A stretch of 64,000 bases of DNA from a virus. Lineage: Duplodnaviria; Heunggongvirae; Uroviricota; Caudoviricetes. Below are positions 1-63,810 of the stretch, one piece after another (within the stretch, counting starts at the first letter, position 1; each line of letters begins with the position of its first letter). The stretch is from the IMG/VR virus record IMGVR_UViG_3300042554_002914; one strand, written 5' to 3'. Position numbers and translations under genes: made by a program. The notes beneath the pieces are model-generated. The model was given only the letters and a program-made list of their open reading frames with translations, made no database searches and was not told the origin of the DNA.

Positions 1-805
1 TAAAATTTTTGAATTTTTTAGGACCTAATGAAAAACCATCCAAAAAATTCTACATTTGAATGCATATTCTGCACCCTACTATCATATATTCGCGTAAAAA
101 TTATTTATAGTACACTCTTATCTAAATACCTATATAGATAAGTTTTGTTTATCAATGAGTTTGCTGTTAGTTCTCATCAGCCATCCAACTATCATCAAGC
201 CAATTTAAATACCAAGCCATTTATTCTCCGAAAGATATAGTCAGTAGGTCATCACCCTATCCGCAATCAGCAATCAATCCCCATAGCCAAGCACCAATTA
301 TCAAGGGCACTGTCCCAGACCCAATGGGCCTCATCTTGGAGCCATCTCTCAGGAAGCCCCAAAATATCAATAGCAGCCTCTGCCAAGGCGGTAGCACAAT
401 TGTACTCCCGAGCGTTGCCATACATCCAGCTTGAGATTGAGCGTTGGTTGAAGCCGGGGGTTGAACGGGCCATGGTTGCCTCCGTTAGTGACAGGGAAAT
501 TGTAGCACGGTGTCGGCGGGTTGTCAACTTATTGGCATCAATCCCCTTCGGAAACAACCTCGAAGTCCACCTCAAAGGGGCCATCCCACTCCTGAGCCCA
601 CTGGGGGGCACACTCGCCCATGAAGCGAAGATCATCCGACTGATGAGAGAATGGTTCAGGAACCGTGTCAACTACACAGACCCAAGTTGGAAGATTCCCC
701 CGACGCACAGGATAGGCAGTGTCCCCGACCCATTCTTGAGCTAGGAAGGTGCAGCGTAGGGTGTGGGCCATTGTGAGGTCGGTGGGTTTCGGTTGGTATG
801 GACCT

Positions 806-4412: not shown

Positions 4413-4716
4413 TTAATCTTCAAAGTTATCCCCAAATTCTCTTCGCAGTACCCTATACTTTTGAAGCCGTCTTTTTCTTTCTTGGCTCGCTTGATACTCA
4501 ATATCAGTTTCTTCACGGTTGAAGTAAGGTATCAATCCGATGATGCACCCATCGTAGTTTTCACACTCTTCAAAATACACATACCCCTTGGTTTTCAATT
4601 CTTGAAACCTCTTAATTGCATCATCAATTGAGCCTGCTAAATGAGCAAAACCAATGCTGCTCCACTTGACGCTAACCATTTTTCTTTTCAGTGTCGTTGA
4701 TGTTGAACTTCCCCAT
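4413..4716 (-). CDS. hypothetical protein (start MGKFNINDTEKK)
   Basis: The ORF extends upstream to the ATG at 4714-4716 directly after the conserved promoter/leader cassette. Confidence 0.45.
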
Positions 4717-4795
4717 TGGGGTTACGGTTTGGGGAATCTGACTCCCATAGTATGGCACCCTCGGCCCCGAACCGAACCTCTCCTATGCCAATTTC
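4711..4795 (-). promoter_or_regulatory. promoter plus conserved 5' leader cassette, copy 2
   Basis: The roughly 90-nt element is conserved and precedes the ATG at 4714-4716. Confidence 0.5.
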
Positions 4796-4848
4796 CCGTG
4801 TGTCACTTTTAATTTAAATCAATACAACCCGGTAAACGACCTAGGAAG

Positions 4849-5079
4849 TCAACCATCCCTCAAATAAGACGTAACAATGACGGGCACCCTATCGGGCCAC
4901 ATATAAGACCCAGTATCCTCCAGACCTTCTATCACACAGGTAACTTCTACTTCACCGCCGTCTGGGGTTTTATAGATCTTAGCGCTACACTCTTCTGCTG
5001 CAGAAGGACTATAAAATGCTAGTCGTTGCTTGGTGGAGTTTGCATCTCTCAAAAACAATTCGGGGCAGAATGAATCCAT
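4849..5079 (-). CDS. hypothetical protein (start MDSFCPELF)
   Basis: ATG at 5077-5079 follows the third copy of the leader cassette. The longer ORF in the track starts inside the cassette. Confidence 0.4.
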   Translation of the reverse strand: MDSFCPELFLRDANSTKQRLAFYSPSAAEECSAKIYKTPDGGEVEVTCVIEGLEDTGSYMWPDRVPVIVTSYLRDG

Positions 5080-5160
5080 TGGGGGTTGCGGTTTGTGGAA
5101 TCTGACTCCCATAGTCTAGCACACGGGAGGCCTAGCCAGACCCCACCTATGCCAATTCTC
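5075..5160 (-). promoter_or_regulatory. promoter plus conserved 5' leader cassette, copy 3
   Basis: The roughly 90-nt element is conserved and precedes the ATG at 5077-5079. Confidence 0.5.
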
Positions 5161-5225
5161 AGGGTGTCACCACCATCCTGCGTGCGATAAATAAATCAGC
5201 ACTACAATAACCACACCATCCAAAA

Positions 5226-5804
5226 TCAACCCGATGGCCCCTTAAGTTTAACCGGAAAGGTAAGTTCCCCAATGTCAACCTTCACCGGTTGTAAATCACC
5301 ATCCTCAATAATCCAAACATTTTTTGCAATATAATCATTTCGGCCCTCTTGCATTGAAAGACCCCTATCAATCCCCACGGTCCTACCTTGATACACCGCA
5401 GTTGAATGATGAACCAACAATTGATTAGTATAGTCTAATTTATACGAAGCATCAACCTCTGACTCAAAATCAATATACTTTTTGTAATCATCTTCATCTT
5501 CAGCAAGAGAACGCACAAAGGCGGATACCCTGTCAAATACCCCCTTACTAACCCATTGAATCTCAACAGGCTCTTTTCTCCCACTTCGAGAAGTAATACA
5601 AATTAGTTCTCCATCAAGATATACCGCATTATCACCTACCCAAGTATCAGTACAGTTCCATGCTGAAACGGGGCGATAAGTAAACCCATTGCTCTCAAGG
5701 TCCACCCAATTATAGCCGCCAAAGATTTCTTCAAAAAATTCACTACCCCCGGTATAAGGGAGTTCTTCGCTATCTAATCTTTGGAGTAGTTCGGATAGTT
5801 TCAT
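5226..5804 (-). CDS. hypothetical protein
   Basis: 192-aa minus-strand ORF. Confidence 0.5.
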   Translation of the reverse strand: MKLSELLQRLDSEELPYTGGSEFFEEIFGGYNWVDLESNGFTYRPVSAWNCTDTWVGDNAVYLDGELICITSRSGRKEPVEIQWVSKGVFDRVSAFVRSLAEDEDDYKKYIDFESEVDASYKLDYTNQLLVHHSTAVYQGRTVGIDRGLSMQEGRNDYIAKNVWIIEDGDLQPVKVDIGELTFPVKLKGPSG

Positions 5805-5858
5805 TTGGTTGATTGACTGGTTTTAATGGTCATTTTTGATAGGCCCAAGGCCCAGGAC

Positions 5859-6539
5859 TCAATAAGAAACGCACCGGACGGAACGCACACAGCTAGTGTT
5901 GCTTTTGTTGAGGCTGCACTGGTAACCATTAAAGAAGCTGACGCAACAAGCGTTGGACGCAATGAACTCGCTAGAACTCCAATACCATGTCTTATTAAAT
6001 TCCTTAGGAATTACTTTATATGCAAGGTTCAGTTGCTCTACTGTAGGAACAAACCACTGAGAAGGAATAAAACCCTGAGAAGCAAGCCTATCAAAAACTT
6101 CCGAAAATTCCTTAGACCAAGGGCAAGAAACTTCCGTCGATTTCGGTGCAGCAACCAAGGCAAGACCGTTCTCTTTCTTCAGAACAATCGAACCATCCTC
6201 AAGGGTATCGCCCACTTCTGCATCTTGGATGCTAGGTGACGGCTCGGACTCAAGTTGCTCCTTTAGTTTTGCCAGTTGTTGTTCGGTGTCCTTAATGGAC
6301 TGGAGTAATTGCCTGTAGGTACTCATTGTTTCTACAATCTTCTCGATCTTCACAATATCCTTTGGGTGTTGGCAATCATAGGAAAGATAATATCCCCCAG
6401 GGCCCCACATACAATCACTAAGTTTGAATGGATAGTAACCACTCTTCGAATTTAATTCAATAGTGCCCGTAAGAACGTCGCCATCACGCAACGTAACCGT
6501 TACTTCTTTGCCGACAAATTGTTCAAGATTGATGTTCAT
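5859..6539 (-). CDS. hypothetical protein with a DUF1566-like C-terminus (WYWSSSEF)
   Basis: The N-terminus (NLEQFVGKEVTVTLRDG) is paralogous to 15805..16317. The C-terminus (VGDTLEDGSIV..WYWSSSEF) is paralogous to 32855..33301. Confidence 0.5.
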   Translation of the reverse strand: MNINLEQFVGKEVTVTLRDGDVLTGTIELNSKSGYYPFKLSDCMWGPGGYYLSYDCQHPKDIVKIEKIVETMSTYRQLLQSIKDTEQQLAKLKEQLESEPSPSIQDAEVGDTLEDGSIVLKKENGLALVAAPKSTEVSCPWSKEFSEVFDRLASQGFIPSQWFVPTVEQLNLAYKVIPKEFNKTWYWSSSEFIASNACCVSFFNGYQCSLNKSNTSCVRSVRCVSY

Positions 6540-6573
6540 TGGTGGTAGGTGGTGGTGGCCCTGGTAACGAACC

Positions 6574-6603
6574 CACTATAGCACAATGCCAAGGCATCGT
6601 CAA
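6574..6603 (-). promoter_or_regulatory. type-I promoter repeat (TTGACG-N17-TATAGT with TGn)
   Basis: Plus strand reads ctatagcacaatgccaaggcatcgtcaacccc. The spacer contains the palindrome ATGCCAAGGCAT. Confidence 0.6.
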
Positions 6604-6996
6604 CCCCGAGGCTCAACCCGAGGCTCAACCCCACCGGCAGTCACAAGCTCCCGCCAGCGTAAATCTGCCGCCTCACCCACAAGATAATCCACACAATCAT
6701 GCCAATCCCCTCCCCTTACCCCGTGACTCAACAATCTCTGCAATGCCACAGCTAAAACCTCAGAAGTCGGCAACGGCCTTCCACTTTCCTTCCGAGACCT
6801 TGCCAATAAGGACACATCCCGGCAGGCTTCATTGCAGGCGGCTTCAATTTTGAGCGATTGATTGCTGCTGGTGGGAGTGGTAGTGGTAGCGGTGGCGGTA
6901 GTTTCCATGGTTGTTTGTAAGTGAGGGGTCGGAAGGTGGCCGATGCAGGTATTATACATGACAAGTTGGCAGCCGCACGGGGCCGATACCAGCTAG

Positions 6997-9261: not shown

Positions 9262-9545
9262 TGTGTAGGGTTGGTGAGTATTTATACCTAGTGCTTGGCT
9301 AGGATGGGCGCCACTCGATGTCGTTGACTCCTATAAGTTGGTGAGTATTTATACCTAGTGCTGGTTAGGTTAGGGGCCGTTTTGTGTCGTTGACTTCTGG
9401 GGGGCCGTAAGTATTTATACTCACTGCCGGCTAAGTCGGAGTCCCCCCGGTGTCGTTGGCTCCACACAAGTCAGTAAGTATTTATACTCACTGTTTAAAA
9501 ACAAAAAACCCATAATTTTCGGAGGGGGCGTTAGCCCCCGACTGG
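9262..9545 (-). repeat. tandem array of four roughly 68-bp units, each with a GTATTTATAC (TATAAATA on minus) box and a GTCGTTGAC box, ending in a GC hairpin
   Basis: The units start near 9268, 9336, 9407 and 9474. The hairpin ggggcgttagccccc lies at 9524-9539. Confidence 0.6.
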
Positions 9546-13873: not shown

Positions 13874-15328
13874 TTACCCCGAAACCCTGCCATCACTAAT
13901 CATTATGCCTTCACTTACCAATAATTCCCGAATCCTATCTGCCTCCTCATAATCACGATTAGCCCTTGCTATGTTGCGCATTTCAATTAGTGCCTGAATT
14001 TCATCGCTTTTTGGTTTTTGAGGCTCGGAAACCTCATGAACCAGTCCCAAAATCCCAGCTAATTCACATAAGAGCCCCCAACGATTTAGAATTTCCCTAT
14101 TTTCATCGCCTGCTGATACAATGGGGCGAGCCAAATAGAATAATTCGCTGATGGCCACAGACGTATTAAGATCATCATTGAGTGCCGAAATGAAGCGGTC
14201 TCGGCTATTTTTTAAGTCTGTAGTTAAAATCAAGGGTTCATTCGTTTGCTGACTAATCCCGTGCCGACTAATTCCATTCCGGCTAGCCCCATGCCAACTA
14301 TCACCATGCCAACCAAACCCCAATGCAGCATTTAATACTTTCCAACCATTGATCGCGGGTATCATTGCCTCTGAATTAAAATCTATCGGCTTCCTGTAAT
14401 GGGCTTGTAATACGAATAACCTAATGGTCATGGGACTAATGCCGGATCCAATTAGGTCTCTAATGGTTGTAAAATTCCCTAGGGATTTAGCCATTTTTTC
14501 TTCACCAACCGTGACAAACCCGTTATGAAGCCAATACCTGGCTAGTTCAGCCCCATTGGCAGCCTCAGATTGGGCGATCTCGTTTTCGTGGTGGGGAAAG
14601 ATCAGATCGGCTCCACCCAAATGAATGTCAATTGTCTCACCTAGTTCTTCCCTAATCATAGCCGAACATTCGATATGCCATCCGGGTCGTCCCCACCCCC
14701 AGGGTGACGGAAAGCCGGGTTCACTCGCCATGGCACTCTTCCAAAGAGCAAAATCAAAAGGGTGGCCCTTCTTTGAGTCGCTATTAACTTGTTGTTGGCC
14801 AAGGTTGCGACCACTTAGTTTCCCGTACCCCTTAAACCCTGTAACCGAGAAGTACATATCCCCGCCCATAGAATAAGCAAATCCCTTATCGGCAAGGTCT
14901 TGAATCATGGCGCGGATTGCATCGAGACTACGGGTAACCCTTGGCATTTTGTCGGCAGGCAGGATGTTCAATGCGCCCATATCCTCCTCAAAGGCCTTAA
15001 TATTACGCTCACTGACGGCCCCGATTGTTGTTCCTTCAGAGTTGGCTTTGGCTAGAATTTTATCATCGATATCCGTATAATTCTGAACAAACGTAACCTC
15101 ATACCCATGCCACATAAAATTACGCCTTAAGACATCCCACACGATATAACTACGGGCGTGCCCTAAGTGGCATAAATCGTAAACGGTAACACCGCAGCAG
15201 TAAATCGAGACCTTGCCTGGAACCAGCGGAGTAAACTTCTCCTTGGCTTTAGTAAGGGTGTTGGTTAGGGTAATGTCGTTAATCATTGTATTTTGTAAGG
15301 TCAATATCCCCATGTCAATCCTTGTCAA
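13874..15328 (-). CDS. cysS: cysteinyl-tRNA synthetase
   Basis: The class-I HIGH motif (CHLGHARSY) and the KMSKS motif (KMAKSLGN) are both present. The protein is 484 aa. Confidence 0.9.
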
Positions 15329-17483: not shown

Positions 17484-18665
17484 TCACTTCCTGGTTTGAA
17501 CAGGCATCACCAAATATGCGTAACATGCCCCATCATTGGAATTAATCGGAGTCAAAACTGCTGGTGTTGTCGGTGCGTTCATTTGAATTTGAACTTTATC
17601 TGCGCCCATAACCTTAGTTTTCAGGACTTCGATTAGGTAACGCACGTTGAATGCGATTGTGATTTCCGGGCTATCACCAATGACTGGCAGATCCTCATTG
17701 AATTGCATTAATCCATCGGCATCGGCTCTAATTGTGGCCCCAACTTCAGTAAACTCAAACTTGACTACATTGTTATGATGCGCAGCCACAACAGCAGCTT
17801 GCTCAAGTGTAGTCAGCAGAGAAAGACGATCAAAGACAGCGACCGACATAAAATTATTAGGAATCAACTGCCGATAGTTAGGGTATTGCCCATCTACCAA
17901 TCGGAATTGAACCTTATAGGTGCCGTACACCATGGTAACATCTTGCTTGGATACAGTGAAGGAAACCGGACTAAACTTAGGCTTAGCACCAATAATCCTG
18001 GCAATCTCTGCTAGGATCTTAGCGGGCATCGTAAAGTTAAATTCTGTTTCCTCAGTATCAACAATGTCATCCAAAGTCAAAACTGATAACCTGTGCCCGT
18101 CCGTAGCAGCAAAAGTCAAAGAATTGCCAGCAAGTTGTAGGTTGACCCCGGTAAGGAGCATCTTGGCCTGGTCCGAACTTGCCGAAAACAGGGTACTACC
18201 CAGGCCACTAACAAACTCAGCAGGTTGCACGCCGAATGTTACTGTGTCGGTGGCACCACTGGCTGTGACTGGCACACTCGGAAAATCATCTGCTGAGATC
18301 GTATTGATCTTAACTGCTGCACCTTTATCTGAAGAAACCAACAACTTACCTTCAGAATCGTCGGGGTCAAAACTAAGGATGACCGCCGAAGTCTTAGGCA
18401 TCCCGTTTACGATATCCTTAAGGGTGGACACCGAAGCAGTAATTGAACCTGGAGACTCCACCGATGCAGCAATATCGACTGATACTTGTTTGATGAAACC
18501 GGAATTATTTCCCAGATCATACACCGTGGCCACCAACTTACCTGTATCAGGAACAGCGGTAAGCAACACATTGAAGAGAACAGGATGCTTAGCCCGCTTA
18601 TCATAGTTCCGTGCTAGAACTTTCAAGGCTTGGCTGAAATCAGATTGGGCAACTACGGCTTTCAT
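17484..18665 (-). CDS. dnaN: DNA polymerase III beta sliding clamp-like protein
   Basis: The 393-aa length and the N-terminal pattern (MKAVVAQSDFSQALKVLARN) are typical of bacterial beta clamps. The call rests on overall pattern only. Confidence 0.55.
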   Translation of the reverse strand: MKAVVAQSDFSQALKVLARNYDKRAKHPVLFNVLLTAVPDTGKLVATVYDLGNNSGFIKQVSVDIAASVESPGSITASVSTLKDIVNGMPKTSAVILSFDPDDSEGKLLVSSDKGAAVKINTISADDFPSVPVTASGATDTVTFGVQPAEFVSGLGSTLFSASSDQAKMLLTGVNLQLAGNSLTFAATDGHRLSVLTLDDIVDTEETEFNFTMPAKILAEIARIIGAKPKFSPVSFTVSKQDVTMVYGTYKVQFRLVDGQYPNYRQLIPNNFMSVAVFDRLSLLTTLEQAAVVAAHHNNVVKFEFTEVGATIRADADGLMQFNEDLPVIGDSPEITIAFNVRYLIEVLKTKVMGADKVQIQMNAPTTPAVLTPINSNDGACYAYLVMPVQTRK

Positions 18666-23776: not shown

Positions 23777-24526
23777 TTACATTTTCATTGTAGCATCTAG
23801 ACGCAAGCCCCCAGAGAAGATAACCTTAGCCATTGTGTCAGGTAGCGTCCCCAGTAGGTGCAGAGAGTCTAAAGTGGAAAACATAAACATTTTGTTTAGT
23901 TCTTCCCTTACCCTCTCCTTGGAGACACCCGCTAGCATTTCCTCCGCCAGACCACTACGCAATGCAGCATGAGTTTCAACCTCGGGGACAAAACCTTTGG
24001 TGATTTGGAACCTGAACCCTCTTAGAACTCTGAGCCCATCTTCTTTGATTCGTTGCTCAGGATCCCCAACAAACCGAAGAATTTTGTTTTCGATGTCGGA
24101 AACCCCGTCAACAAAGTCAATTAGGTTACCTTGAATGTCCCTACAAAGTGCATTTACTGAAAAGTCTCTGCGAAAAATGTCATCTTCCAGGGTACCCGGC
24201 TTCACCCAATCAGGGCGACGGCCATCGCTGTAGGGACCATCTTTGCGGGCTAGTACAAAGTCAGCGACGGTAGTGCGGGCCTCTAGCACATGGCCCTTTG
24301 GGACCCGCGCACGAATGGTTAGAAACTCACGGCGAGACTCGAAAATCTGGAAACCTTGCTCGGCAAGCTGAGCTTCCATCGCAAGGAAAGCACTATCGGC
24401 CGTGGCGAAGACACCCTCGGGAGCAACAACAGAGAAGTCAATGTCCTTGGATGGAATCCCAAGTAAACTATCCCTGACACAACCCCCCACCTCAAAAAAT
24501 TGAAATTTTTCCACTTGCTTTGCCAT
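23777..24526 (-). CDS. cca: tRNA nucleotidyltransferase (CCA-adding enzyme), minimal head/neck form
   Basis: GGCVRDSLLG..DIDF is a class-II nucleotidyltransferase motif. RRDFSVNAL is a CCA-enzyme signature. The protein is 249 aa. Confidence 0.75.
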   Translation of the reverse strand: MAKQVEKFQFFEVGGCVRDSLLGIPSKDIDFSVVAPEGVFATADSAFLAMEAQLAEQGFQIFESRREFLTIRARVPKGHVLEARTTVADFVLARKDGPYSDGRRPDWVKPGTLEDDIFRRDFSVNALCRDIQGNLIDFVDGVSDIENKILRFVGDPEQRIKEDGLRVLRGFRFQITKGFVPEVETHAALRSGLAEEMLAGVSKERVREELNKMFMFSTLDSLHLLGTLPDTMAKVIFSGGLRLDATMKM

Positions 24527-29112: not shown

Positions 29113-29154
29113 TTACCTTAATATAACCAAGATGTAACCCCCAGGGATTACAAA

Positions 29155-29243
29155 GGAAGAAGGGGGATTCGAACCCCCGGAGCCGCGAAAGCGACTCTGC
29201 AGTTTTCAAGACTGCCGCTATCAGCCACTCAGCCACTCTTCCA
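29155..29243 (-). tRNA. tRNA-Ser (anticodon UGA), type II with a long variable arm
   Basis: The reverse complement gives acceptor GGAAGAG, anticodon stem GCAGU/ACUGC and loop CUUGAAA. The variable arm is long. The T-arm is GGGGGUUCGAAUCCCCC. CCA is not encoded. Confidence 0.85.
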
Positions 29244-30140: not shown

Positions 30141-30544
30141 GGTTGGAGGGGGTGGGGTAGCCTACCCTGAATTTTACCCCCCCGTTCATTAACCTTTCAA
30201 ATTAGATTTGGCAAGGTCTAATGCAATCCAGTTTTTCAGGGTTTGAAGACTGCGAATTTTTGCCTGAAGGTGTGATAATCCCTCTTCGGAAAAAGACTCA
30301 GGACATAACTCTCGTTCAGCAATTAGTTCCCCTGCATACATTTCAAGGGCTTCGATTGCGAGTTCTTTATCTTGTTTGGAAATTAGTGACATGGCCTATG
30401 AGTTGAAACCTTTGGGTGCGTTAATTAGCTTGGTGTTTGCCATTTTTTTTATAGTTGTTAGCGTAGGTTGTTAGCGTAGATTGCTAATGCAGGTTGTTAA
30501 TGCAATGAGTACAAACCCTGGCCATTATTACCCATTGTCAAATA

Positions 30545-30632
30545 GGCGTGTAGGGAGTCGAACCCTAACTAGCCGGTAATCTGCCGGAGTGGCCTTCATA
30601 AGGGGCCCTGTGCTACCGTACACCACACGCCC
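30545..30632 (-). tRNA. type-II tRNA (long variable arm) with a noncanonical anticodon arm; anticodon ambiguous (UAU if the stem is 4 bp plus a C.A mismatch)
   Basis: Acceptor GGGCGUG, U8, D-stem GUGU/GCAC and T-arm UAGGG-UUCGACU-CCCUA are canonical. The variable arm is a hairpin, CCGGCAGAUUACCGG. The anticodon region is GGCCC-CUUAUGA-AGGCC, which can also be read as a 9-nt loop. Confidence 0.6.
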
Positions 30633-31047: not shown

Positions 31048-31119
31048 CACCCTGAGAGGGATTTGAACCCCCGACCGACGACTTAGAAGGTCGCTGCTCT
31101 TCCACTGAGCTACCAGGGC
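31048..31119 (-). tRNA. tRNA-Arg (anticodon UCU)
   Basis: D-arm is GCUC-AGUGGAA-GAGC. Anticodon stem-loop is GCGAC-CUUCUAA-GUCGU. T-arm is GGGGG-UUCAAAU-CCCUC. The acceptor has G.U pairs. Confidence 0.8.
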
Positions 31120-36558: not shown

Positions 36559-36807
36559 TTACTCATGGTTTAAAAAGTCTAGTAAAAGTTGGATGATGTT
36601 TCTTTTATACTTACGTTTTTTGCTCTGTGGAGTAAACCTACCAAATACCTCAAGTTCTTCGATAGATGCTCCCTGAAGCCAGTATTGAAAGGAGTCTTCG
36701 TCCATGAGGCAAATATCGTTGTAGGGGCCAAATGACGGATCTAATGGTCTTAGGGAACTGCCACCGTAAGGCGCATAGTGGCCATTCGAATTACGATAGA
36801 GGACCAT
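36559..36807 (-). CDS. hypothetical protein
   Basis: 82-aa ORF. A homopolymer A/T tract lies immediately upstream of the ATG and a C11 run lies further upstream. Confidence 0.35.
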   Translation of the reverse strand: MVLYRNSNGHYAPYGGSSLRPLDPSFGPYNDICLMDEDSFQYWLQGASIEELEVFGRFTPQSKKRKYKRNIIQLLLDFLNHE

Positions 36808-36994
36808 AAAAAAATTTTTTTTTTAGGAAAGCAATCTTCTACAGCGAGCCACCCCCCCCCCATGAGTCGTGCTGACAGCGCTTTAAGGTTGTGATAGGCA
36901 TTTTGCTGTGGGGGTTGTTTGGAACTGTTATCAGTGCCACTCTAGCATGGTTGCTGCTAGGTGTCAACTCTTAACCAAGTTATAAATGTAGTGA

Positions 36995-37109
36995 ATGGGA
37001 CCGGCAGGATTTGAACCTACAACCTCTCCTTTATCATAGGAATTTTAATTGCTGATGTATCTTTGACAAGATAACTTTCTTTAGCGCTCTGTCGTTGAGC
37101 TATGGTCCC
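36995..37109 (-). ncRNA. tRNA-like RNA gene in which a roughly 40-nt insertion replaces the anticodon arm
   Basis: Minus-strand reading is GGGACCA-UA-GCUC-AACGACA-GAGC, then the insertion, then GUAGG-UUCAAAU-CCUGC-CGGUCCC-A. The insertion holds a UAUCUU-GUCA-AAGAUA hairpin and the motif CAGCAAUUAAAAUUCC. No canonical 7-nt anticodon loop is present. Confidence 0.5.
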
Positions 37110-37216
37110 TTGTTTGCTTCGCAAATAGCTTGTTGAAACACGGTTTAGCTAGATAGTTGGTTTTCCGATTTTGAAGGGGATGGTTGCTGAACTATCTACG
37201 TTTGCCGAAGGCAAAG

Positions 37217-37346
37217 TCGAAGAGGCAAGATTCGAACTTGCGTATGGCGGTTCCTTTTAGCGTATTGGGGTATTGCTGAACTATCTAAGGTATCACTAGA
37301 TGGTCTTTTTGCATTACCGCTGCCTTACCCACTTGGCTACTCTTCG
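37217..37346 (-). ncRNA. tRNA-like RNA gene with a roughly 57-nt insertion between anticodon-stem halves GCGGU/ACCGC
   Basis: CGAAGAG-UA-GCC-AAGUGGGUAA-GGC-A-GCGGU precedes the insertion, which holds an AUCUAG..UUAGAU hairpin and CAGCAAUACC. ACCGC-CAUAC-GCAAG-UUCGAAU-CUUGC-CUCUUCG-A follows it. Confidence 0.5.
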
Positions 37347-37401
37347 TTGTTGGTTGTTGGTTGTTGGTCTAGTGTTTTAACTGTTTAAGGTCAACAAGGT
37401 G

Positions 37402-37480
37402 AGCTTGCTGGATTTGAACCAGCTAACCAGGCGTATCACGTACTCCTTGTATTATCCTATTTGGAATGGCTGCCTCACCT
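37402..37480 (-). ncRNA. partial tRNA-like element (T-arm plus a 7-bp closing helix) carrying the same CAGC..AUUCC motif
   Basis: A GCUGG-UUCAAAU-CCAGC T-arm is present. The ends AGGUGAG and CUCACCU pair. No D-arm is recognisable, and 3 nt lie between the T-stem and the closing helix. Confidence 0.3.
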
Positions 37481-37592
37481 TAGGCTTTGAGCTTGTTAAG
37501 CAAGCCCGACACTTCTATTATAGTGTGTATGGACAGGGAGTAAAGGGGTGAAAACCGAACATTGCCACTGAGTGTAGAATTCCGTGGACAAA

Positions 37593-37710
37593 TAGGGGAA
37601 GAAGGAATCGAACCTCCGTCACGTCCGTATGATGGAATTTTTGTAATTGCTGTCTGCACCTTATTCAAGGTAACCGTTAATTACGTGTGCTGCCACCGCA
37701 CTATTCCCCT
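37593..37710 (-). ncRNA. tRNA-like RNA gene in which a roughly 43-nt insertion replaces the anticodon arm
   Basis: AGGGGAA-UA-GUGC-GGUGGCA-GCAC-A precedes the insertion, which holds a UUACCUU-GAAU-AAGGUG hairpin and CAGCAAUUACAAAAAUUCC. GGAGG-UUCGAUU-CCUUC-UUCCCCU-A follows, with a perfect 7-bp acceptor. Confidence 0.5.
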
Positions 37711-37996
37711 TTGTTGCCCTGGTGAATTACCAGGGAAGCTAACTTTATTTAAACAAGATGGTTGGTTTTTCTGTTACAAAGAAAGGTTAGATTGCTGAAC
37801 CATCTTACGGGCCTGCCTTACTTACCGCCCATTAACCCCAGGATTAATGCGAGGGTGAACAATCCTAACCCGAAAATCACAATTAAAGTAGGGCCAAACA
37901 CTGATAGCCATGGCCACGTTATCTGGCCCGTTAATTTCAACCCGAGAAGTAGCCCTTGAGCTGATATTAACGCAGTTGCAAAGGTCCCCATTTCCA

Positions 37997-53676: not shown

Positions 53677-54176
53677 TTTGTTATAGGTTGATTGAGTGAG
53701 GGGTGAATTGAATAGCTATCGTAACACAAATTGCCCTACCCACGTAGAACAGTGTGCCAGTTGGCCAAGTGTCCACACATGGGTTAGTCTTGTGGCTGTT
53801 TTGCCATGTTCAGTTGTGCAATATGAAGAAGTTTTTCCTTCCTTGCTTTTTGCTTTAGGTAGATAACAAAAGAAATATTCATTTTGCCACCTTCACATTT
53901 TTTGCAAGGGCGATGAGTTTGGTTATACCAATCTGCGTACTCTTGTTTTGCAACATCGGTATCATAAGCGACACCGCGATAGACTGCTTTAGACATTTTT
54001 TTCCTCTATGGTGAAATCATGAGTCCCGTTCCTTCGGAAGGCGATTGCGTTTCTCGTCGTCCTACTTGCGTCCACTGTGTGTTAATAGCGGATGAACGAT
54101 GGTAGTTTAGGTCTCTGATATCTTGTATAGCTTATAATACCCATCTATTTAGAAATCAGGTTCACTCAATACCCCG

Positions 54177-62304: not shown

Positions 62305-63810
62305 TTAACCAAGTAGGCGACTGCGAACGTTCGCTAAACCGTTGGTATCTTCACCGTAAATCACACTATTTAGAAATACGGTTTGGAGCGCACCTCGCTG
62401 CTCTTGCTCACGAGTTTGCTGTTGATAGAGGACAAAGTCATCTCCTTCTTTTTCAACACGGAGTAAACCCTTGGCCGACTTTTTGGTGCCACGGTCGGTA
62501 ACCGGATCCTTCATGGTCTCAATCGGGACACCTTTGATCTGGCCCCAAGTTGTTTTGTAAGCGATTCCGAAAGTATCACGAGTGTGGTATTGATAGGTGT
62601 AAGAACCGATCCCAAACACGATGTTTTCGGATGCCCAACCTTGTTGCCTCATGTGCTCCAAAATAGCTCTGGCACGGGGTAGAGTGATGGAATCCCCATA
62701 AATAAGTCCAATCCGAGGGTTCAAGACTTTGAATCCCTTTTCGTTCACTGTCCCACCGAAGACTTCCCACAGGAGTTGAAGGGAGCCCTTGAACTCACGG
62801 CTACCTGGCTCAGTGCCGTTGTCACCGCAAATGATTTTCTCGGGGGATCCCGAGTCGGGTCTGACGGTTACCTTGGCTAGTCCCAATTCATTAGGCTGAC
62901 GGTTTAGGATTTCATCTTTAAGGGTAGGGAGAATTACCGTCAGTGTATCCCAGTAATTCCAAGTGTCACTGACTACGCTAACAATCCCTTTTGGGTACAC
63001 CTTCGTGATGATCCGTCGAATAGTCTCCAATTCATTTTCCCGTCCCCCTAGGCAGGTAACACTATGCTCCGTAGCGGGGACACTACCCCCAATGAACTCG
63101 GAACCGCAATCATAATAATCGTCAAGGTAATCAATCGAAAGGATAGTGTCAGTACCCTTAAAACTATACAAGTGCCCAATCTGGTGAGCTGCCGCATCAT
63201 GAATGCCCCCTACTCCGCGAGCAGAAAAGTCATGCCCCTGAAAGTCAACGAACTGAGGACTACTACCTGTGAGTTCAGCGTAGTGGTCTAAAAGACGGCG
63301 AAATTCATAGGCAATGGTGGCTACGTTGACTGCTTTCCAAATTTCCGAAGATTTAGCAGTTTCAATATAGTTAGTGGCCCATGGAGCCATCCACTTGAAG
63401 TCTTTATGAGTGTTTTGTGCCGTCAGAAAGGGGACGCCAATGTTCACACGACTACCTTCTGGGAGAGCTTTAATGTGAAGGGGCAGGTAACCAAGGTCGT
63501 GTAATTCCGCAAAGTGATCAGTTCCCACTACGCCTTCCCCCAGCGAAGAATCCATTCGCCGCTTATACTTATCAAGGACTTTAGCCTTAGGCTGGTGAAA
63601 GAAGGTTTCATTCCAAAGATCCCTCAACATCCATTTCATGGTCCCCTGGATATTAGCCACAACTACCTTATGGTCGAATCCCTCAGGCATATTTGCTAGG
63701 CGATCAGACCTAGCTGTCATGTTGGCATAGATAATCTCAGTGCCTTCTGGGTTTTGAAAGGGGTGTCCAGTCTTGTAAAAGTCTGTTGCGTGGGGGGCGA
63801 AAAGTTTCAT
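62305..63810 (-). CDS. nadV: nicotinamide phosphoribosyltransferase (NAMPT/NadV)
   Basis: TDFYKTGH matches NAMPT TDSYKVTH. The 501-aa length fits the NAPRTase/NAMPT family. Confidence 0.8.
   Translation of the reverse strand: MKLFAPHATDFYKTGHPFQNPEGTEIIYANMTARSDRLANMPEGFDHKVVVANIQGTMKWMLRDLWNETFFHQPKAKVLDKYKRRMDSSLGEGVVGTDHFAELHDLGYLPLHIKALPEGSRVNIGVPFLTAQNTHKDFKWMAPWATNYIETAKSSEIWKAVNVATIAYEFRRLLDHYAELTGSSPQFVDFQGHDFSARGVGGIHDAAAHQIGHLYSFKGTDTILSIDYLDDYYDCGSEFIGGSVPATEHSVTCLGGRENELETIRRIITKVYPKGIVSVVSDTWNYWDTLTVILPTLKDEILNRQPNELGLAKVTVRPDSGSPEKIICGDNGTEPGSREFKGSLQLLWEVFGGTVNEKGFKVLNPRIGLIYGDSITLPRARAILEHMRQQGWASENIVFGIGSYTYQYHTRDTFGIAYKTTWGQIKGVPIETMKDPVTDRGTKKSAKGLLRVEKEGDDFVLYQQQTREQEQRGALQTVFLNSVIYGEDTNGLANVRSRLLG

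What the first reader, a model, noticed from the sequence alone, without database searches (positions are those of the whole stretch)
36990..37715. Cluster of four tRNA-like genes in which a 40-60-nt insertion sharing a conserved motif replaces the anticodon arm
Three elements (36995-37109, 37217-37346, 37593-37710) have a canonical 7-bp acceptor stem and a canonical T-arm (UUCAAAU or UUCGAUU loop). Two (36995-37109, 37593-37710) also have U8/A9 and a clean 4-bp D-arm; the third (37217-37346) has only a 3-bp D-stem. In all three, the 17-nt anticodon arm is replaced by 40-57 nt. Each insertion holds a stable short hairpin (UAUCUU-GUCA-AAGAUA, AUCUAG..UUAGAU, or UUACCUU-GAAU-AAGGUG). Each also holds a shared sequence CAGCAAU(UA..AAAAUUCC). 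A fourth, partial element (37402-37480) carries the same motif. In 37217-37346 the insertion sits exactly between complementary anticodon-stem halves (GCGGU...ACCGC), as in an intron-bearing pre-tRNA. No canonical 7-nt anticodon loop with U33 can be drawn in any of them. At 40-57 nt the insertions are far too short for group I introns. That leaves three readings: archaeal or eukaryote-style spliced tRNA introns in a phage; anticodon-less tRNA-like decoy or sponge RNAs; or a new tRNA-shaped noncoding RNA class. The co-encoded ligases, kinase, phosphatases and CCA enzyme are what a splicing or repair pathway would need.
Basis: seen in the sequence. Interest (0 to 1): 0.9.

Follow-up and report, generated by a model that had tools for sequence, protein, structure and literature searches.

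The report
tRNA-shaped partner RNAs of Ro-like protein
The odd "tRNAs" are real, conserved RNAs in which a small hairpin-plus-CAGCAAU module is built into the anticodon stem of a complete tRNA, and they sit beside a gene for a distant structural relative of the Ro60 RNA-quality-control protein, so they are most likely its partner RNAs, a new version of the Ro60/Y-RNA pairing.

Summary
Three 114-130-nt tRNA-shaped genes lie on the minus strand (36996-37109, 37217-37346, 37593-37710). A fourth element has only an outer stem, the motif and a T arm (37396-37481). The anticodon arm is not replaced in two of the three: a ~40-nt module (A-rich linker, 5-6-bp hairpin, 3-4 nt, CAGCAAU) is inserted into the 5' strand of the anticodon stem, and a 7-nt loop with U33/A37 survives. 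The same helix+CAGCAAY module also occurs as stand-alone hairpins (37754-37807, 37149-37198) and, degenerate, in the 5' UTR of the adjacent 500-aa ORF (37997-39499). That ORF (Pfam DUF2828+DUF7788) has a predicted fold whose best PDB matches are only Ro60 proteins. In 82 related viral loci, ~155 such RNAs lie on the gene's strand within ~2.5 kb, with compensatory changes in all four helices. In Clostridia the protein sits in RtcB-RlaP repair operons, and there the motif lies at the acceptor end of a tRNA-like body (YrlA-like topology). Best reading: partner RNAs of a divergent Ro60-like protein, not introns and not pseudogenes. Binding and function are inferred. Not in Rfam; no description found in the searchable literature. 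I rate it a new variant of a known kind, high interest.

The parts
37997..39499 (-). Gene for a 500-aa Ro60-like protein: N-terminal helical-repeat domain (Pfam DUF2828) plus a vWA domain (DUF7788) with a MIDAS motif DVSGSM
39511..39565 (-). 5'-UTR hairpin of the Ro-like gene. It carries the variant motif CAGCUAU (39556-39550). Its 3' strand ends 12 nt before the ATG (39499). The stem is AAGUUUAU/AUCAACUU with one mismatch.
   Evidence: Sequence. Intact homologous elements (AAGUUGAU-N-CAGC(A/U/C)AY...AUCAACUU-GGAG..AUG) occur in 26 of 70 related loci.
37818..37997 (-). Small hydrophobic ORF (59 aa) between the Ro-like gene and the RNA cluster. It is context only and probably not part of the system.
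   Evidence: ORF list. PHROG 1374, weak. tblastn finds it only in close relatives.
37754..37807 (-). Stand-alone hairpin RNA (class 2). The 5' strand UAAGAUGGUU is followed directly by CAGCAAU (37797-37791) in the loop; the 3' strand is AACCAUCUUG.
   Evidence: 11-bp anchored helix. Fold. The same architecture occurs at 190 of 452 gene-strand motif sites in related loci, against 8 of 171 on the opposite strand.
37593..37710 (-). tRNA-shaped RNA 'C' (118 nt). Acceptor 37710-37704 / 37600-37594. D arm. Insert hairpin 37672-37657. CAGCAAU 37652-37646. Anticodon-like loop AUCAUAC within 37636-37624. T arm 37617-37601.
   Evidence: Rfam tRNA 40.8 bits. Model R1 90.1 bits. Loop analysis.
37396..37481 (-). 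Class 3 element: outer stem AAGGUGAG/CUCACCUU, variant motif CAGCCAU (37472-37466), internal hairpins and a T arm GCUGGUUCAAAUCCAGC (37423-37407). It has no D arm and no acceptor end.
   Evidence: 9-bp anchored helix. Fold. Analogues with a T arm inside the loop occur in L026 (~7008) and L033 (~6933).
37217..37346 (-). tRNA-shaped RNA 'B' (130 nt). It has a 3-bp D stem and an intact 5-bp anticodon stem GCGGU/ACCGC (37320-37316 / 37251-37247) enclosing the module: hairpin 37301-37283 and CAGCAAU 37278-37272. There is no canonical anticodon loop.
   Evidence: Rfam tRNA 47 bits. R1 55.1 bits. Orthologues are in L003, L014, L048, L004, L005, L009, L013 and L028.
37149..37198 (-). Stand-alone hairpin RNA (class 2): UAGAUAGUU-CAGCAAC (37189-37183)...AACUAUCUA
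   Evidence: 11-bp anchored helix. Fold z-score -2.6.
36996..37109 (-). tRNA-shaped RNA 'A' (114 nt). Acceptor 37109-37103 / 37003-36997. D arm 37100-37086. Insert hairpin UAUCUU-GUCA-AAGAUA 37073-37058. CAGCAAU 37054-37048. Intact anticodon-like stem-loop UUCCU-AUGAUAA-AGGAG 37042-37026. T arm 37020-37004.
   Evidence: Rfam tRNA 38 bits. R1 99.5 bits. Fold z-score -3.1. Loop analysis.
36940..36962 (-). Short, weak hairpin (4 bp, CUAG/CUAG) with CAGCAAC (36956-36950) in its loop. It may be a degenerate copy; its status is uncertain.
   Evidence: Sequence. No long anchored helix. It overlaps a promoter-like site.

Best explanation
The cluster encodes partner RNAs of the adjacent Ro60-like protein. 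In function they would be analogues of Y RNAs, and specifically of the tRNA-like YrlA class.

Each RNA carries one conserved module: a helix followed by 3-4 nt and single-stranded CAGCAAY. I infer that this module is the protein's binding site.

In this phage lineage the module takes several forms:
- (a) grafted into the 5' strand of the anticodon stem, or into the loop, of an otherwise complete tRNA with acceptor end, D arm, T arm and elbow nucleotides;
- (b) standing alone as a hairpin;
- (c) combined with only a T arm;
- (d) sitting in the gene's own 5' UTR next to the ribosome-binding site, which suggests autoregulation.

Inferred sequence of events:
1. The cluster is transcribed downstream of the gene.
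2. The tRNA-shaped units are cut out by tRNA-processing enzymes and may receive CCA from the phage's CCA-adding-type enzyme.
3. The ring-shaped protein binds the module.
4. The tRNA-shaped part serves as a tether or bait for tRNA-recognising factors, such as RNA repair ligases, nucleases or host anticodon nucleases, during infection.

What is shown: the anatomy, the conservation and covariation, the gene-RNA linkage, the protein fold and the repair-operon context in bacteria. What is inferred: binding, processing and biological role.
For: 1. Protein.
- Pfam DUF2828+DUF7788.
- Foldseek E 9e-7 to 6e-4 for six Ro60 structures; the next hit is at 0.02.

2. Linkage.
- In 82 viral loci holding homologues of 39-97% identity, model R1 finds ~155 long tRNA-shaped hits (48-112 bits). 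All are on the gene's strand and within ~2.5 kb. Ordinary tRNAs score <=46.
- A motif-first scan of IMG/VR returns the gene next to the RNA: 26 of 37 tRNA-embedded hits. At least five of the other 11 come from contigs already known to carry the gene.
- AT-rich contigs with 27-30%-identity homologues carry arrays of the bare module.
- In bacterial loci CAGCAAY occurs 252 times on the gene strand and 71 on the other (64 expected), peaking within 500 nt upstream of the ATG.

3. RNA structure.
- 98.5% of cells are paired and 21 of 22 pairs show compensatory changes.
- The covariation score is 0.844, against 0.256 for shuffles (0 of 500 reach it) and <=0.163 for slid controls.
- All 6 pairs of the insert hairpin covary.
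- The outer stems of stand-alone forms have 49 different sequences.

4. Modularity.
- In Clostridia the same motif lies between an outer stem and a tRNA body with D, anticodon and T arms, which is the YrlA-like topology.

5. Pathway context.
- In bacteria the gene is followed by RtcB in 28 of 56 loci and by RlaP in 8 of those 56; one locus examined (L269) has WYL-domain proteins upstream. This mirrors the rsr-yrlBA-rtcBA operon (PMC7790460, PMC4201824).
- The window itself encodes two RNA ligases, phosphoesterases and a CCA-adding-type enzyme.

6. A 5'-UTR copy of the element abuts the SD in 26 of 70 loci.
Against: - No binding data exist.
- The protein shows no sequence-level similarity to TROVE/Ro60: a profile search of the PDB found none. 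The structural model is only moderate (pLDDT 66.8, TM ~0.4).
- The motif is unrelated to the Ro-binding motifs GGUCCGA / GNCGAA.
- One lineage (L102/L097) has module-bearing tRNA-likes next to a 646-aa ORF with no detectable similarity to DUF2828. The partner could therefore differ there, or the gene lies elsewhere.
- The window's own 5'-UTR copy is degenerate (CAGCUAU, one stem mismatch).
- Genomic linkage would also fit a cis-regulatory or processing role.
Confidence: 0.68

Rival explanations
1. They are true pre-tRNAs with a new kind of short intron. The module is cut out and the halves are joined by the phage's RNA ligases, giving ordinary tRNAs (Ile-GAU, Met/Ile-CAU and others).
For: In ~56 of 104 distinct sequences, removing the insert would restore a 5-bp anticodon stem around a 7-nt loop. 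34 pass a strict U33 + purine-37 test, against 0.9% of shuffles. The window encodes two RNA ligases, phosphoesterases and a CCA-adding-type enzyme.
Against: - The same module occurs where there is nothing to splice: stand-alone hairpins, 5' UTRs, bare arrays, and the acceptor end of bacterial tRNA-like bodies.
- The insertion site is not fixed. It is within the 5' strand of the stem in some subfamilies and in the loop in others, and it is never at the canonical 37/38 site in the window copies A and C.
- There is no group I core or ribozyme match.
- The insert hairpin and CAGCAAY are conserved more strictly than any intron would need.
- Anticodons differ between near-identical scaffolds.
- Relatives already carry 25-29 ordinary tRNAs, including the same anticodons.
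Confidence: 0.08
2. They work mainly as tRNA decoys or baits. The tRNA body with a real-looking anticodon loop attracts host anticodon nucleases or other tRNA-targeting defence or modification enzymes. The module is a handle that recruits the Ro-like protein, or another factor, to neutralise or report the attack. This is a more specific version of the main explanation rather than an alternative to the RNP.
For: - Loops copy real anticodon loops, for example CUUUUAA (Lys-UUU type), CUGUUAA/AUGUUAA (Asn-GUU type), AUUCUAA (Arg-UCU) and AUCAUAC (CAU).
- Within one scaffold group positions 32-33 and 37-38 stay fixed while 34-36 change: AUCAUAC / AUUACAC / AUUCCAC, and AUUGGGA / AUGUUAA / AUUACAA.
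- The context is RNA repair.
- That anticodon nucleases target Lys, Asn and Arg tRNAs is established knowledge (PrrC, colicins E5 and D). I cite this from memory; it was not tested here.
Against: - Subfamily B (window 37217-37346) and ~45% of sequences have no canonical loop.
- The stand-alone hairpins have no tRNA part at all.
- No anticodon nuclease or target is identified.
- The variation could also be neutral drift at unconstrained positions.
Confidence: 0.15
3. The helix+CAGCAAY element is a cis-acting signal, such as a processing site for an RNase, a transcription attenuator or terminator, or a promoter-associated cassette of tRNA-rich regions. On this view it is not bound by the neighbouring protein, and the linkage reflects shared genomic neighbourhoods.
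For: - Elements alternate with tRNA-like genes as processing signals might.
- Some copies lie in 5' UTRs.
- Sigma-70-like promoters sit just upstream of the first element in relatives.
- T4-type phages are known to carry mobile promoter stem-loop cassettes. This is from memory and was not tested here.
Against: - Linkage to the gene persists from 97% down to 27% protein identity. It holds across phages, AT-rich viral contigs and Clostridial chromosomes, whose neighbourhoods otherwise differ.
- The big arrays of ordinary tRNAs upstream of the gene lack the element between their genes.
- The element is embedded inside structured RNAs, where a terminator or promoter makes no sense.
- The terminator-like and promoter-like counts in the region are no higher than in shuffles.
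Confidence: 0.07
4. They are decaying tRNA pseudogenes disrupted by a small mobile insertion.
For: ARAGORN does not call them. GenBank annotators called one a pseudo-tRNA in Synechococcus phage B3.
Against: - All four helices, including the insert's own hairpin, show compensatory changes in 104 distinct sequences.
- tRNA tertiary nucleotides are invariant: U8, A14, G18, and GUUC.A.UC of the T loop.
- The architecture is shared by Aeromonas and cyanophage lineages.
Confidence: 0.02

Closest known systems
Bacterial and phage Ro60 (Rsr) with tRNA-like Y RNAs (YrlA/YrlB; Chen et al. 2014, PMC4201824; Thermus phage phiLo Yrl1/2, PMC12135203)
   Same: - A ring-type HEAT-repeat + vWA protein, here by predicted fold.
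- The protein gene lies next to, and on the same strand as, several small RNAs.
- At least one RNA has a tRNA-like domain with conserved D and T arms, accompanied by shorter RNAs lacking it (like YrlB).
- The gene is linked to RtcB repair operons in bacteria.
- The system also occurs in large phages.
   Different: - The protein belongs to Pfam DUF2828/DUF7788, not TROVE, and has no sequence-level match to Ro60.
- The conserved RNA motif is helix+CAGCAAY, not GNCGAA / GGUCCGA.
- In the phage forms the topology is inverted. The RNA ends are the tRNA acceptor end, so a free 3' end could take CCA, and the protein-binding module sits inside the anticodon stem. YrlA has a closed acceptor stem and the Ro site at its 5'/3' ends.
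- An anticodon-like loop is retained and varies.
- None of these RNAs hit any Rfam family except tRNA.
Intron-containing tRNA genes (bacterial group I introns in anticodon loops; archaeal/eukaryal bulge-helix-bulge introns)
   Same: A tRNA gene is interrupted in the anticodon arm, and RNA ligases are encoded in the same genome.
   Different: - The insert is 40-64 nt, with no group I core.
- It mostly lies in the 5' strand of the stem rather than in the loop.
- The same sequence module exists independently of tRNA genes.
Phage T4 stable RNAs species 1 and 2 (rnaC, rnaD) in the tRNA cluster
   Same: They are 119-139-nt stable RNAs of unknown function, encoded at the end of a T4-type tRNA cluster. 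rnaC ends in a T arm and an acceptor-like stem.
   Different: They have no CAGCAAY module. R1 gives only 15 bits, over the 3' part of rnaC. No Ro-like gene is annotated in the 10-kb T4 stretch examined; the rest of the genome was not checked.
tmRNA and other tRNA mimics
   Same: A tRNA-like acceptor/T-arm domain is joined to a non-tRNA module that recruits a dedicated protein.
   Different: There is no open reading frame and no pseudoknots, and there is no Rfam tmRNA match. The added module is ~40 nt and sits in the anticodon stem.

Membership tests
tRNA (Rfam RF00005) | Score above the family's gathering threshold, with a 7-bp acceptor stem, D arm, T arm and conserved tertiary nucleotides | tested here: met
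   38-47 bits against a threshold of 29. U8, A14, G18 and the T-loop GUUC.A.UC are invariant or nearly so in 18 family members.
tRNA (Rfam RF00005) | A contiguous 5-bp anticodon stem with a 7-nt loop, an overall length of ~70-95 nt, and use in decoding | tested here: not met
   The RNAs are 114-130 nt. The stem's 5' strand is interrupted by a ~40-nt module in A and C. B has no canonical loop. ARAGORN rejects all three. Decoding itself cannot be tested here.
Intron-containing pre-tRNA | Intron at or near position 37/38, or flanked by a bulge-helix-bulge motif, or carrying a group I catalytic core | tested here: not met
   The insert lies 5' of the anticodon loop in A and C. No intron or ribozyme family is found at E<=10. 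A bulge-helix-bulge motif was not searched for formally.
Intron-containing pre-tRNA | The inserted sequence is found only within tRNA genes and is removed from the mature RNA | tested here: not met
   The module occurs as stand-alone hairpins, in 5' UTRs, in bare arrays and at the acceptor end of bacterial tRNA-like bodies. Removal from the mature RNA is not testable with these tools.
Ro60 / TROVE protein family | A toroid of HEAT-like repeats closed by a vWA domain with a MIDAS motif | tested here: met
Ro60 / TROVE protein family | Sequence membership (Pfam TROVE PF05731, or a significant profile match to Ro60) | tested here: not met
   Pfam gives DUF2828/DUF7788 only. A profile search of PDB sequences finds no Ro60 at E<=10. 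There is no NCBIfam hit.
Y RNA / YrlA | Encoded within a few kb of the Ro gene on the same strand | tested here: met
   This holds for the Ro-like gene in the window and in the great majority of the 82 viral loci. In bacterial loci the gene-strand motif count is enriched and peaks within 500 nt upstream of the ATG.
Y RNA / YrlA | A stem formed by the 5' and 3' ends that carries the Ro-binding motif (GGUCCGA, or GNCGAAN0-1G) | tested here: not met
   The motif here is CAGCAAY. In the window's tRNA-shaped RNAs it is internal, in the anticodon stem. No Y_RNA or YrlA-type Rfam match is found at E<=10.
Y RNA / YrlA | A tRNA-like domain with conserved D and T arms | tested here: met
   Bacterial relatives have a tRNA body inside the outer stem.
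Y RNA / YrlA | Physical association with the Ro protein | not testable with these tools
   This needs co-immunoprecipitation or EMSA.

The most novel reading that the evidence does not exclude
DUF2828 proteins are a large, unrecognised branch of the Ro60 superfamily, with >5,000 homologues in phages, giant-virus-labelled contigs, Clostridia and eukaryotes. They would have their own class of partner RNAs, defined by helix+CAGCAAY. Large T4-type phages have fused this handle into the anticodon stem of complete tRNAs whose anticodon triplets switch freely. The result would be a set of tRNA-shaped baits or guides, programmable through the anticodon, that direct a Ro-like ring (and RNA repair or decay enzymes) to anticodon-specific targets. 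Such targets could be host anticodon nucleases or damaged tRNAs.
Probability: 0.25. Interest if true: 0.9.

Novelty: new variant of a known kind. Interest (0 to 1): 0.8.

Why it matters
What the tRNA-like domain of bacterial Y RNAs does is still unknown (PMC4201824). This finding bears on that question in three ways.

- **A second, independent pairing.** Here is a Ro-shaped protein paired with tRNA-shaped RNAs through a different protein family, a different recognition motif and, in phages, the opposite topology. Convergence on 'Ro-like ring + tRNA-like RNA + RtcB' argues that the tRNA shape is central to the function and not an accident of origin.
- **An experimental handle.** The phage version has free acceptor ends and intact, variable anticodon loops. 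One can therefore ask directly whether these RNAs are CCA-tailed, charged, cleaved or repaired during infection.
- **Practical consequences.** It gives a function-level lead for a domain of unknown function with thousands of members. It explains 'pseudo-tRNA' or over-long tRNA annotations in published phage genomes: the 110-nt tRNA-Pseudo of Synechococcus phage B3 and the 122-nt 'tRNA-Val' of Aeromonas phage Aeh1. It also defines an RNA family absent from Rfam 15.

Tried and rejected
- **Ribozyme or known RNA family in the insert.** Rfam at E<=10 over 36800-37900 gives only tRNA and noise. Rejected.
- **Hammerhead-like CUGAUG on the plus strand.** I read this by eye. The core does not fit and the genes are on the other strand. 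Rejected.
- **Sequence-level link to Ro60.** A profile search of the PDB found nothing. Only fold comparison shows the relationship.
- **T4 rnaC/rnaD as homologues.** They have no motif and R1 gives 15 bits. They are an analogy only.
- **The small ORF 37818-37997 as the RNA's partner.** It is hydrophobic and conserved only in close relatives. Rejected.
- **Other CAGCAAY copies in the window.** The window holds 39 in total against 17 expected. Outside the cluster none has the adjacent helix. They arise from A/C-rich leaders and coding sequence.
- **L102/L097 exception.** The 646-aa ORF next to module-bearing RNAs gave no Pfam hit and hhalign probability ~1% against DUF2828. Left unexplained.
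- **Literature.** Searches for DUF2828, PF11443, DUF7788, YrlA+phage, TROVE+cyanophage and RlaP found no description of this protein-RNA pairing. Burroughs & Aravind 2016 is not held. The supplements of Iyer et al. 2021 are not held. Prior recognition of the protein as 'ROT/TROVE' therefore cannot be excluded.
- **Pairing of the AAU of CAGCAAU.** Pairing with the strand after the anticodon-stem 5' half holds in subfamilies B and C (GUAAUU/AAUUAC) but not in A or the ACG...GCCGU subfamily. It is not a general feature.
Full report
**1. What is in the sequence**

All features lie on the minus strand.

The Rfam tRNA model finds three over-long matches:
- 37346-37217, 47 bits, with 64 nt where the 7-nt anticodon loop should be;
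- 37710-37593, 40.8 bits, 58 nt;
- 37109-36996, 38 bits, 55 nt.

ARAGORN reports only three ordinary tRNAs elsewhere in the window, at 29154-29242, 30543-30632 and 31048-31119. A permissive Rfam scan of 36800-37900 finds nothing else credible: no ribozyme, intron or Y RNA family.

**2. Correction of the anatomy**

The anticodon arm is not simply replaced.

- **Element A (36996-37109).** After CAGCAAU comes UUCCU-AUGAUAA-AGGAG. This is a 5-bp stem with a 7-nt loop carrying U33, the triplet GAU and A37. The variable loop and T arm follow.
- **Element C (37593-37710).** The 3' strand GGACG pairs partly with CG(U) just after the D arm and partly with (U)CC after the insert. The enclosed loop is AUCAUAC.

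So in both, a ~40-nt module is inserted into the 5' strand of the anticodon stem. The module is an A-rich linker, a 5-6-bp hairpin, 3-4 nt, CAGCAAU and a short spacer.

- **Element B (37217-37346).** This is the exception. Its full stem GCGGU/ACCGC encloses the module and there is no canonical loop.

Across 104 distinct family members:
- 56 have such a closed 7-nt loop;
- 34 pass a strict U33 + purine-37 test, against 0.9% of shuffled controls.

**3. The same module outside tRNA bodies**

- Two hairpins in the cluster, 37807-37754 and 37198-37149, have an 11-bp stem. The 5' strand (..AGAUGGUU / ..AGAUAGUU) runs straight into CAGCAAY, and the partner strand lies 25-35 nt downstream.
It has a 9-bp outer stem, CAGCCAU and a T arm in the loop.
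- A degenerate copy (CAGCUAU, one stem mismatch) lies at 39565-39511. It ends 12 nt before the start codon of the upstream ORF.
- Intact versions of this 5'-UTR element end directly at the Shine-Dalgarno sequence in 26 of 70 related loci.
- Other CAGCAAY copies in the window lack the helix and come from A/C-rich leaders and coding sequence.

**4. The neighbouring gene**

ORF 39499-37997 (500 aa) matches Pfam DUF2828 and DUF7788, the latter vWA-like. It also matches PHROG 850, 'RNA-binding protein'. There is no NCBIfam hit, and a profile search finds no sequence-level match to any solved structure.

An AlphaFold2 model built from 25 homologues has pLDDT 66.8. Two fold comparisons agree:
- **Foldseek.** Six hits reach E<=1e-3. 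All are Ro60 structures aligned over the full length.

The vWA MIDAS motif is present as DVSGSM.

I conclude that the protein is Ro60-like in fold. It is not a recognisable TROVE family member by sequence.

**5. Linkage of gene and RNAs**

*Viral loci.*
- The protein has >5,000 homologues.
- I fetched 80 IMG/VR loci with 39-97% identity, plus Synechococcus phage B3 and Aeromonas phage Aeh1.
- A covariance model built from 18 of the RNAs (R1) finds ~155 long hits of 110-141 nt at 48-112 bits. Every one is on the gene's strand and within ~2.5 kb.
- The hits lie downstream of the gene in close relatives and upstream in the ~40%-identity group.
- Ordinary tRNAs score <=46.
- GenBank annotators had labelled these RNAs 'tRNA-Pseudo-GCA' (110 nt, B3) and 'tRNA-Val' (122 nt, Aeh1).

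*Motif-first scan.* A scan of IMG/VR for ATCTTG-N3-6-AAGAT-N3-5-CAGCAAT gave 37 hits that have a T arm downstream.
- 26 have the gene in the fetched stretch.
- At least five of the other 11 come from contigs already known to carry it.

*Distant relatives.* AT-rich contigs labelled as giant-virus MAGs, with 27-30%-identity homologues, carry arrays of the bare hairpin+CAGCAAU unit next to the gene.

*Bacterial loci.* In 80 loci, mostly Clostridia, the motif occurs 252 times on the gene strand and 71 on the other, where 64 are expected. The peak is within 500 nt upstream of the ATG.

*One exception.* In L102/L097, three module-bearing tRNA-likes follow a 646-aa ORF with no detectable similarity to DUF2828.

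**6. Structure conservation**

On 104 distinct sequences aligned to R1:
- 98.5% of pair cells are standard pairs;
- 21 of 22 pairs show changes on both sides;
- the covariation score is 0.844, against 0.256 for column shuffles (0 of 500 reach it) and <=0.163 when partners are slid by 1-3 columns;
- all six pairs of the insert hairpin covary.

Caveat: the alignment was fitted to the model, which favours the structure. The slid controls and the range of pair types (for example UA/CG/AU/GC at the hairpin's outer pair) make the conclusion robust all the same.

For the stand-alone hairpins, an anchored helix of >=8 bp occurs at:
- 190 of 452 gene-strand motif sites;
- 8 of 171 opposite-strand sites;
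- 32 of 452 sites after shuffling.

These helices have 49 different stem sequences.

**7. Modularity and topology**

In Clostridial loci the motif lies between an outer stem (AAAGGCACNNA...GUGCCUUG) and a tRNA body. In L214 the Rfam tRNA model matches positions 5-66 of a tRNA at 2555-2618, with D, anticodon (CAU) and T arms, immediately after CAGCAAC at 2544. That is the topology of YrlA, the tRNA-like Y RNA of bacterial Ro60 (PMC4201824).

In the phage window the arrangement is the inverse. The RNA's ends are the tRNA acceptor end and the module is internal.

The same two parts, a helix+CAGCAAY handle and a tRNA-shaped domain, are thus combined in two ways. They also occur separately.

**8. 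Pathway context**

- In bacteria the gene is followed by RtcB in 28 of 56 loci with enough flank, and by RlaP in 8 of those 56. In the one locus checked upstream (L269), WYL-domain proteins precede it.
- This parallels the Salmonella rsr-yrlBA-rtcBA operon (PMC7790460).
- The window itself encodes a DraRnl-type RNA ligase (45468-44371), an Rnl1-type ligase (53219-52050), two calcineurin-like phosphoesterases, a phosphatase/macro-like protein and a CCA-adding/poly(A)-polymerase-type enzyme (24526-23777).
- Relatives place the gene right after arrays of 25-29 ordinary tRNAs.

**9. Anticodon-like loops**

Within groups that share nearly the same scaffold, loop positions 32-33 and 37-38 stay fixed while 34-36 change:
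- AUCAUAC / AUUACAC / AUUCCAC in the group containing window element C;
- AUUGGGA / AUUGGGG / AUGUUAA / AUUACAA in another group.

Several loops equal real anticodon loops (CUUUUAA, CUGUUAA).

Some triplets duplicate ordinary tRNAs of the same phage: GUU in L026 and UGG in L043. A three-way junction in the anticodon stem also makes ribosomal decoding unlikely, though this is my inference. Whether the variation is adaptive or neutral is not settled.

**10. Most likely mechanism**

*Shown:* the anatomy, the conservation, the linkage, the fold and the operon context.

*Inferred:*
- The Ro-like ring binds helix+CAGCAAY.
- The 5'-UTR copy gives feedback control of translation.
- The tRNA-shaped units are excised by tRNA-processing enzymes and can be CCA-tailed.
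- The tRNA-shaped domain tethers or baits tRNA-recognising factors during infection. The precedent is Y RNA tethering Ro60 to PNPase (PMC4201824, PMC12135203).

Confidence that these are partner RNAs of the Ro-like protein is about 0.68. For any specific downstream role it is much lower.

**11. Rivals**

- **Splicing (0.08).** This fails mainly because the module exists without exons and at varying positions.
- **Decoy or bait (0.15).** This refines the main model rather than contradicting it.
- **Cis-acting signal unrelated to the protein (0.07).** This is hard to square with linkage across unrelated neighbourhoods.
- **Pseudogenes (0.02).** These are excluded by covariation.

**12. Comparison with what is known, and novelty**

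Ro60 with tRNA-like Y RNAs is known in bacteria and in some phages: mycobacteriophages, CcrColossus, Bacillus phage G and Thermus phiLo (PMC4201824, PMC12135203). Iyer et al. mention a 'ROT/TROVE' protein in a subset of jumbo phages (PMC7824862). I could not check whether that includes DUF2828.

The following appear new:
- the protein family in this role;
- the CAGCAAY module;
- the three RNA classes;
- the embedding of the module in the anticodon stem of complete tRNAs.

None of this is in Rfam 15. I found no description in the searchable literature, though that library is incomplete.

I rate it a new variant of a known kind, with interest 0.8.

Noticed in passing
window 54023-54100 (-): A glutamine riboswitch (glnA RNA, Rfam RF01739, 46.4 bits against a threshold of 35). 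This suggests a cyanophage-like origin for the window.
   Followed up: no
window 30543-30632 (-): ARAGORN calls a 90-nt 'tRNA-Ile (UAU)'. It has a long variable arm (a class-II-like body) and the loop CUUAUGA. The Rfam tRNA model does not report it; there is only a weak tRNA-Sec match (22.8 bits). A similar 88-nt gene is in L019 at 9267-9354.
   Followed up: partly
window 13874-15328 (-), 17484-18665 (-), 23777-24526 (-), 62305-63810 (-): The phage encodes a cysteinyl-tRNA synthetase, a DNA polymerase III beta-clamp homologue, a CCA-adding/poly(A)-polymerase-type enzyme and an NAPRTase-family protein. This is a jumbo-phage-like gene content. The closest contig is 279 kb (L014).
   Followed up: partly
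window, upstream of many minus-strand ORFs, e.g. ~23700, 15654, 13768, 12206; also 37375-37347: A/C-rich leaders made of CAA/CCAA repeats (..CCAACAACAACAACCAACAACAACC-ATG) precede many start codons. They account for the excess of CAGCAAC in the window outside the RNA cluster. They may be a non-Shine-Dalgarno type of leader.
   Followed up: no
L102 5207-8071 (same in L097): Three module-bearing tRNA-shaped RNAs and a stand-alone element follow a 646-aa ORF. That ORF has no Pfam hit and no profile similarity to DUF2828, apart from a short T-x-T-x-NG-xx-AY motif. It may be a more divergent partner protein.
   Followed up: partly
L214, L223, L269 and 25 other bacterial loci (L203-L282), ~4450-6900: In Clostridia the DUF2828 gene is followed by RtcB in 28 of 56 loci with enough flank, and by RlaP in 8 of the 56. 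In L269 WYL-domain proteins lie upstream. This looks like an RNA-repair operon in which DUF2828 takes the place of Rsr.
   Followed up: partly
L145 1230-1800, L191, L197 2780-3220, L083, L094, L105, L116: AT-rich contigs labelled as giant-virus MAGs carry tandem arrays of bare hairpin+CAGCAAU units with periods of ~64 or ~113 nt. Several arrays lie next to 27-30%-identity DUF2828 homologues.
   Followed up: partly
L002 (Aeromonas phage Aeh1) ~650-780 (-): Upstream of the two module-bearing tRNA-likes lies an odd tRNA-like sequence with two consecutive T-arm-like hairpins (GAACGGUUCGAUUCCGUUGC and CACUGGUUCGAAUCCAGUA) inside one acceptor stem.
   Followed up: no
window ~37715-37733 (-) and 37517-37544 (-): A 7-bp hairpin CCCUGGU-AAUUC-ACCAGGG lies between the first stand-alone element and tRNA-like C. 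A promoter-like site (TTTACT-16-TATAAT) lies in the middle of the cluster, upstream of the T-arm-only element. The roles of both are unknown.
   Followed up: no
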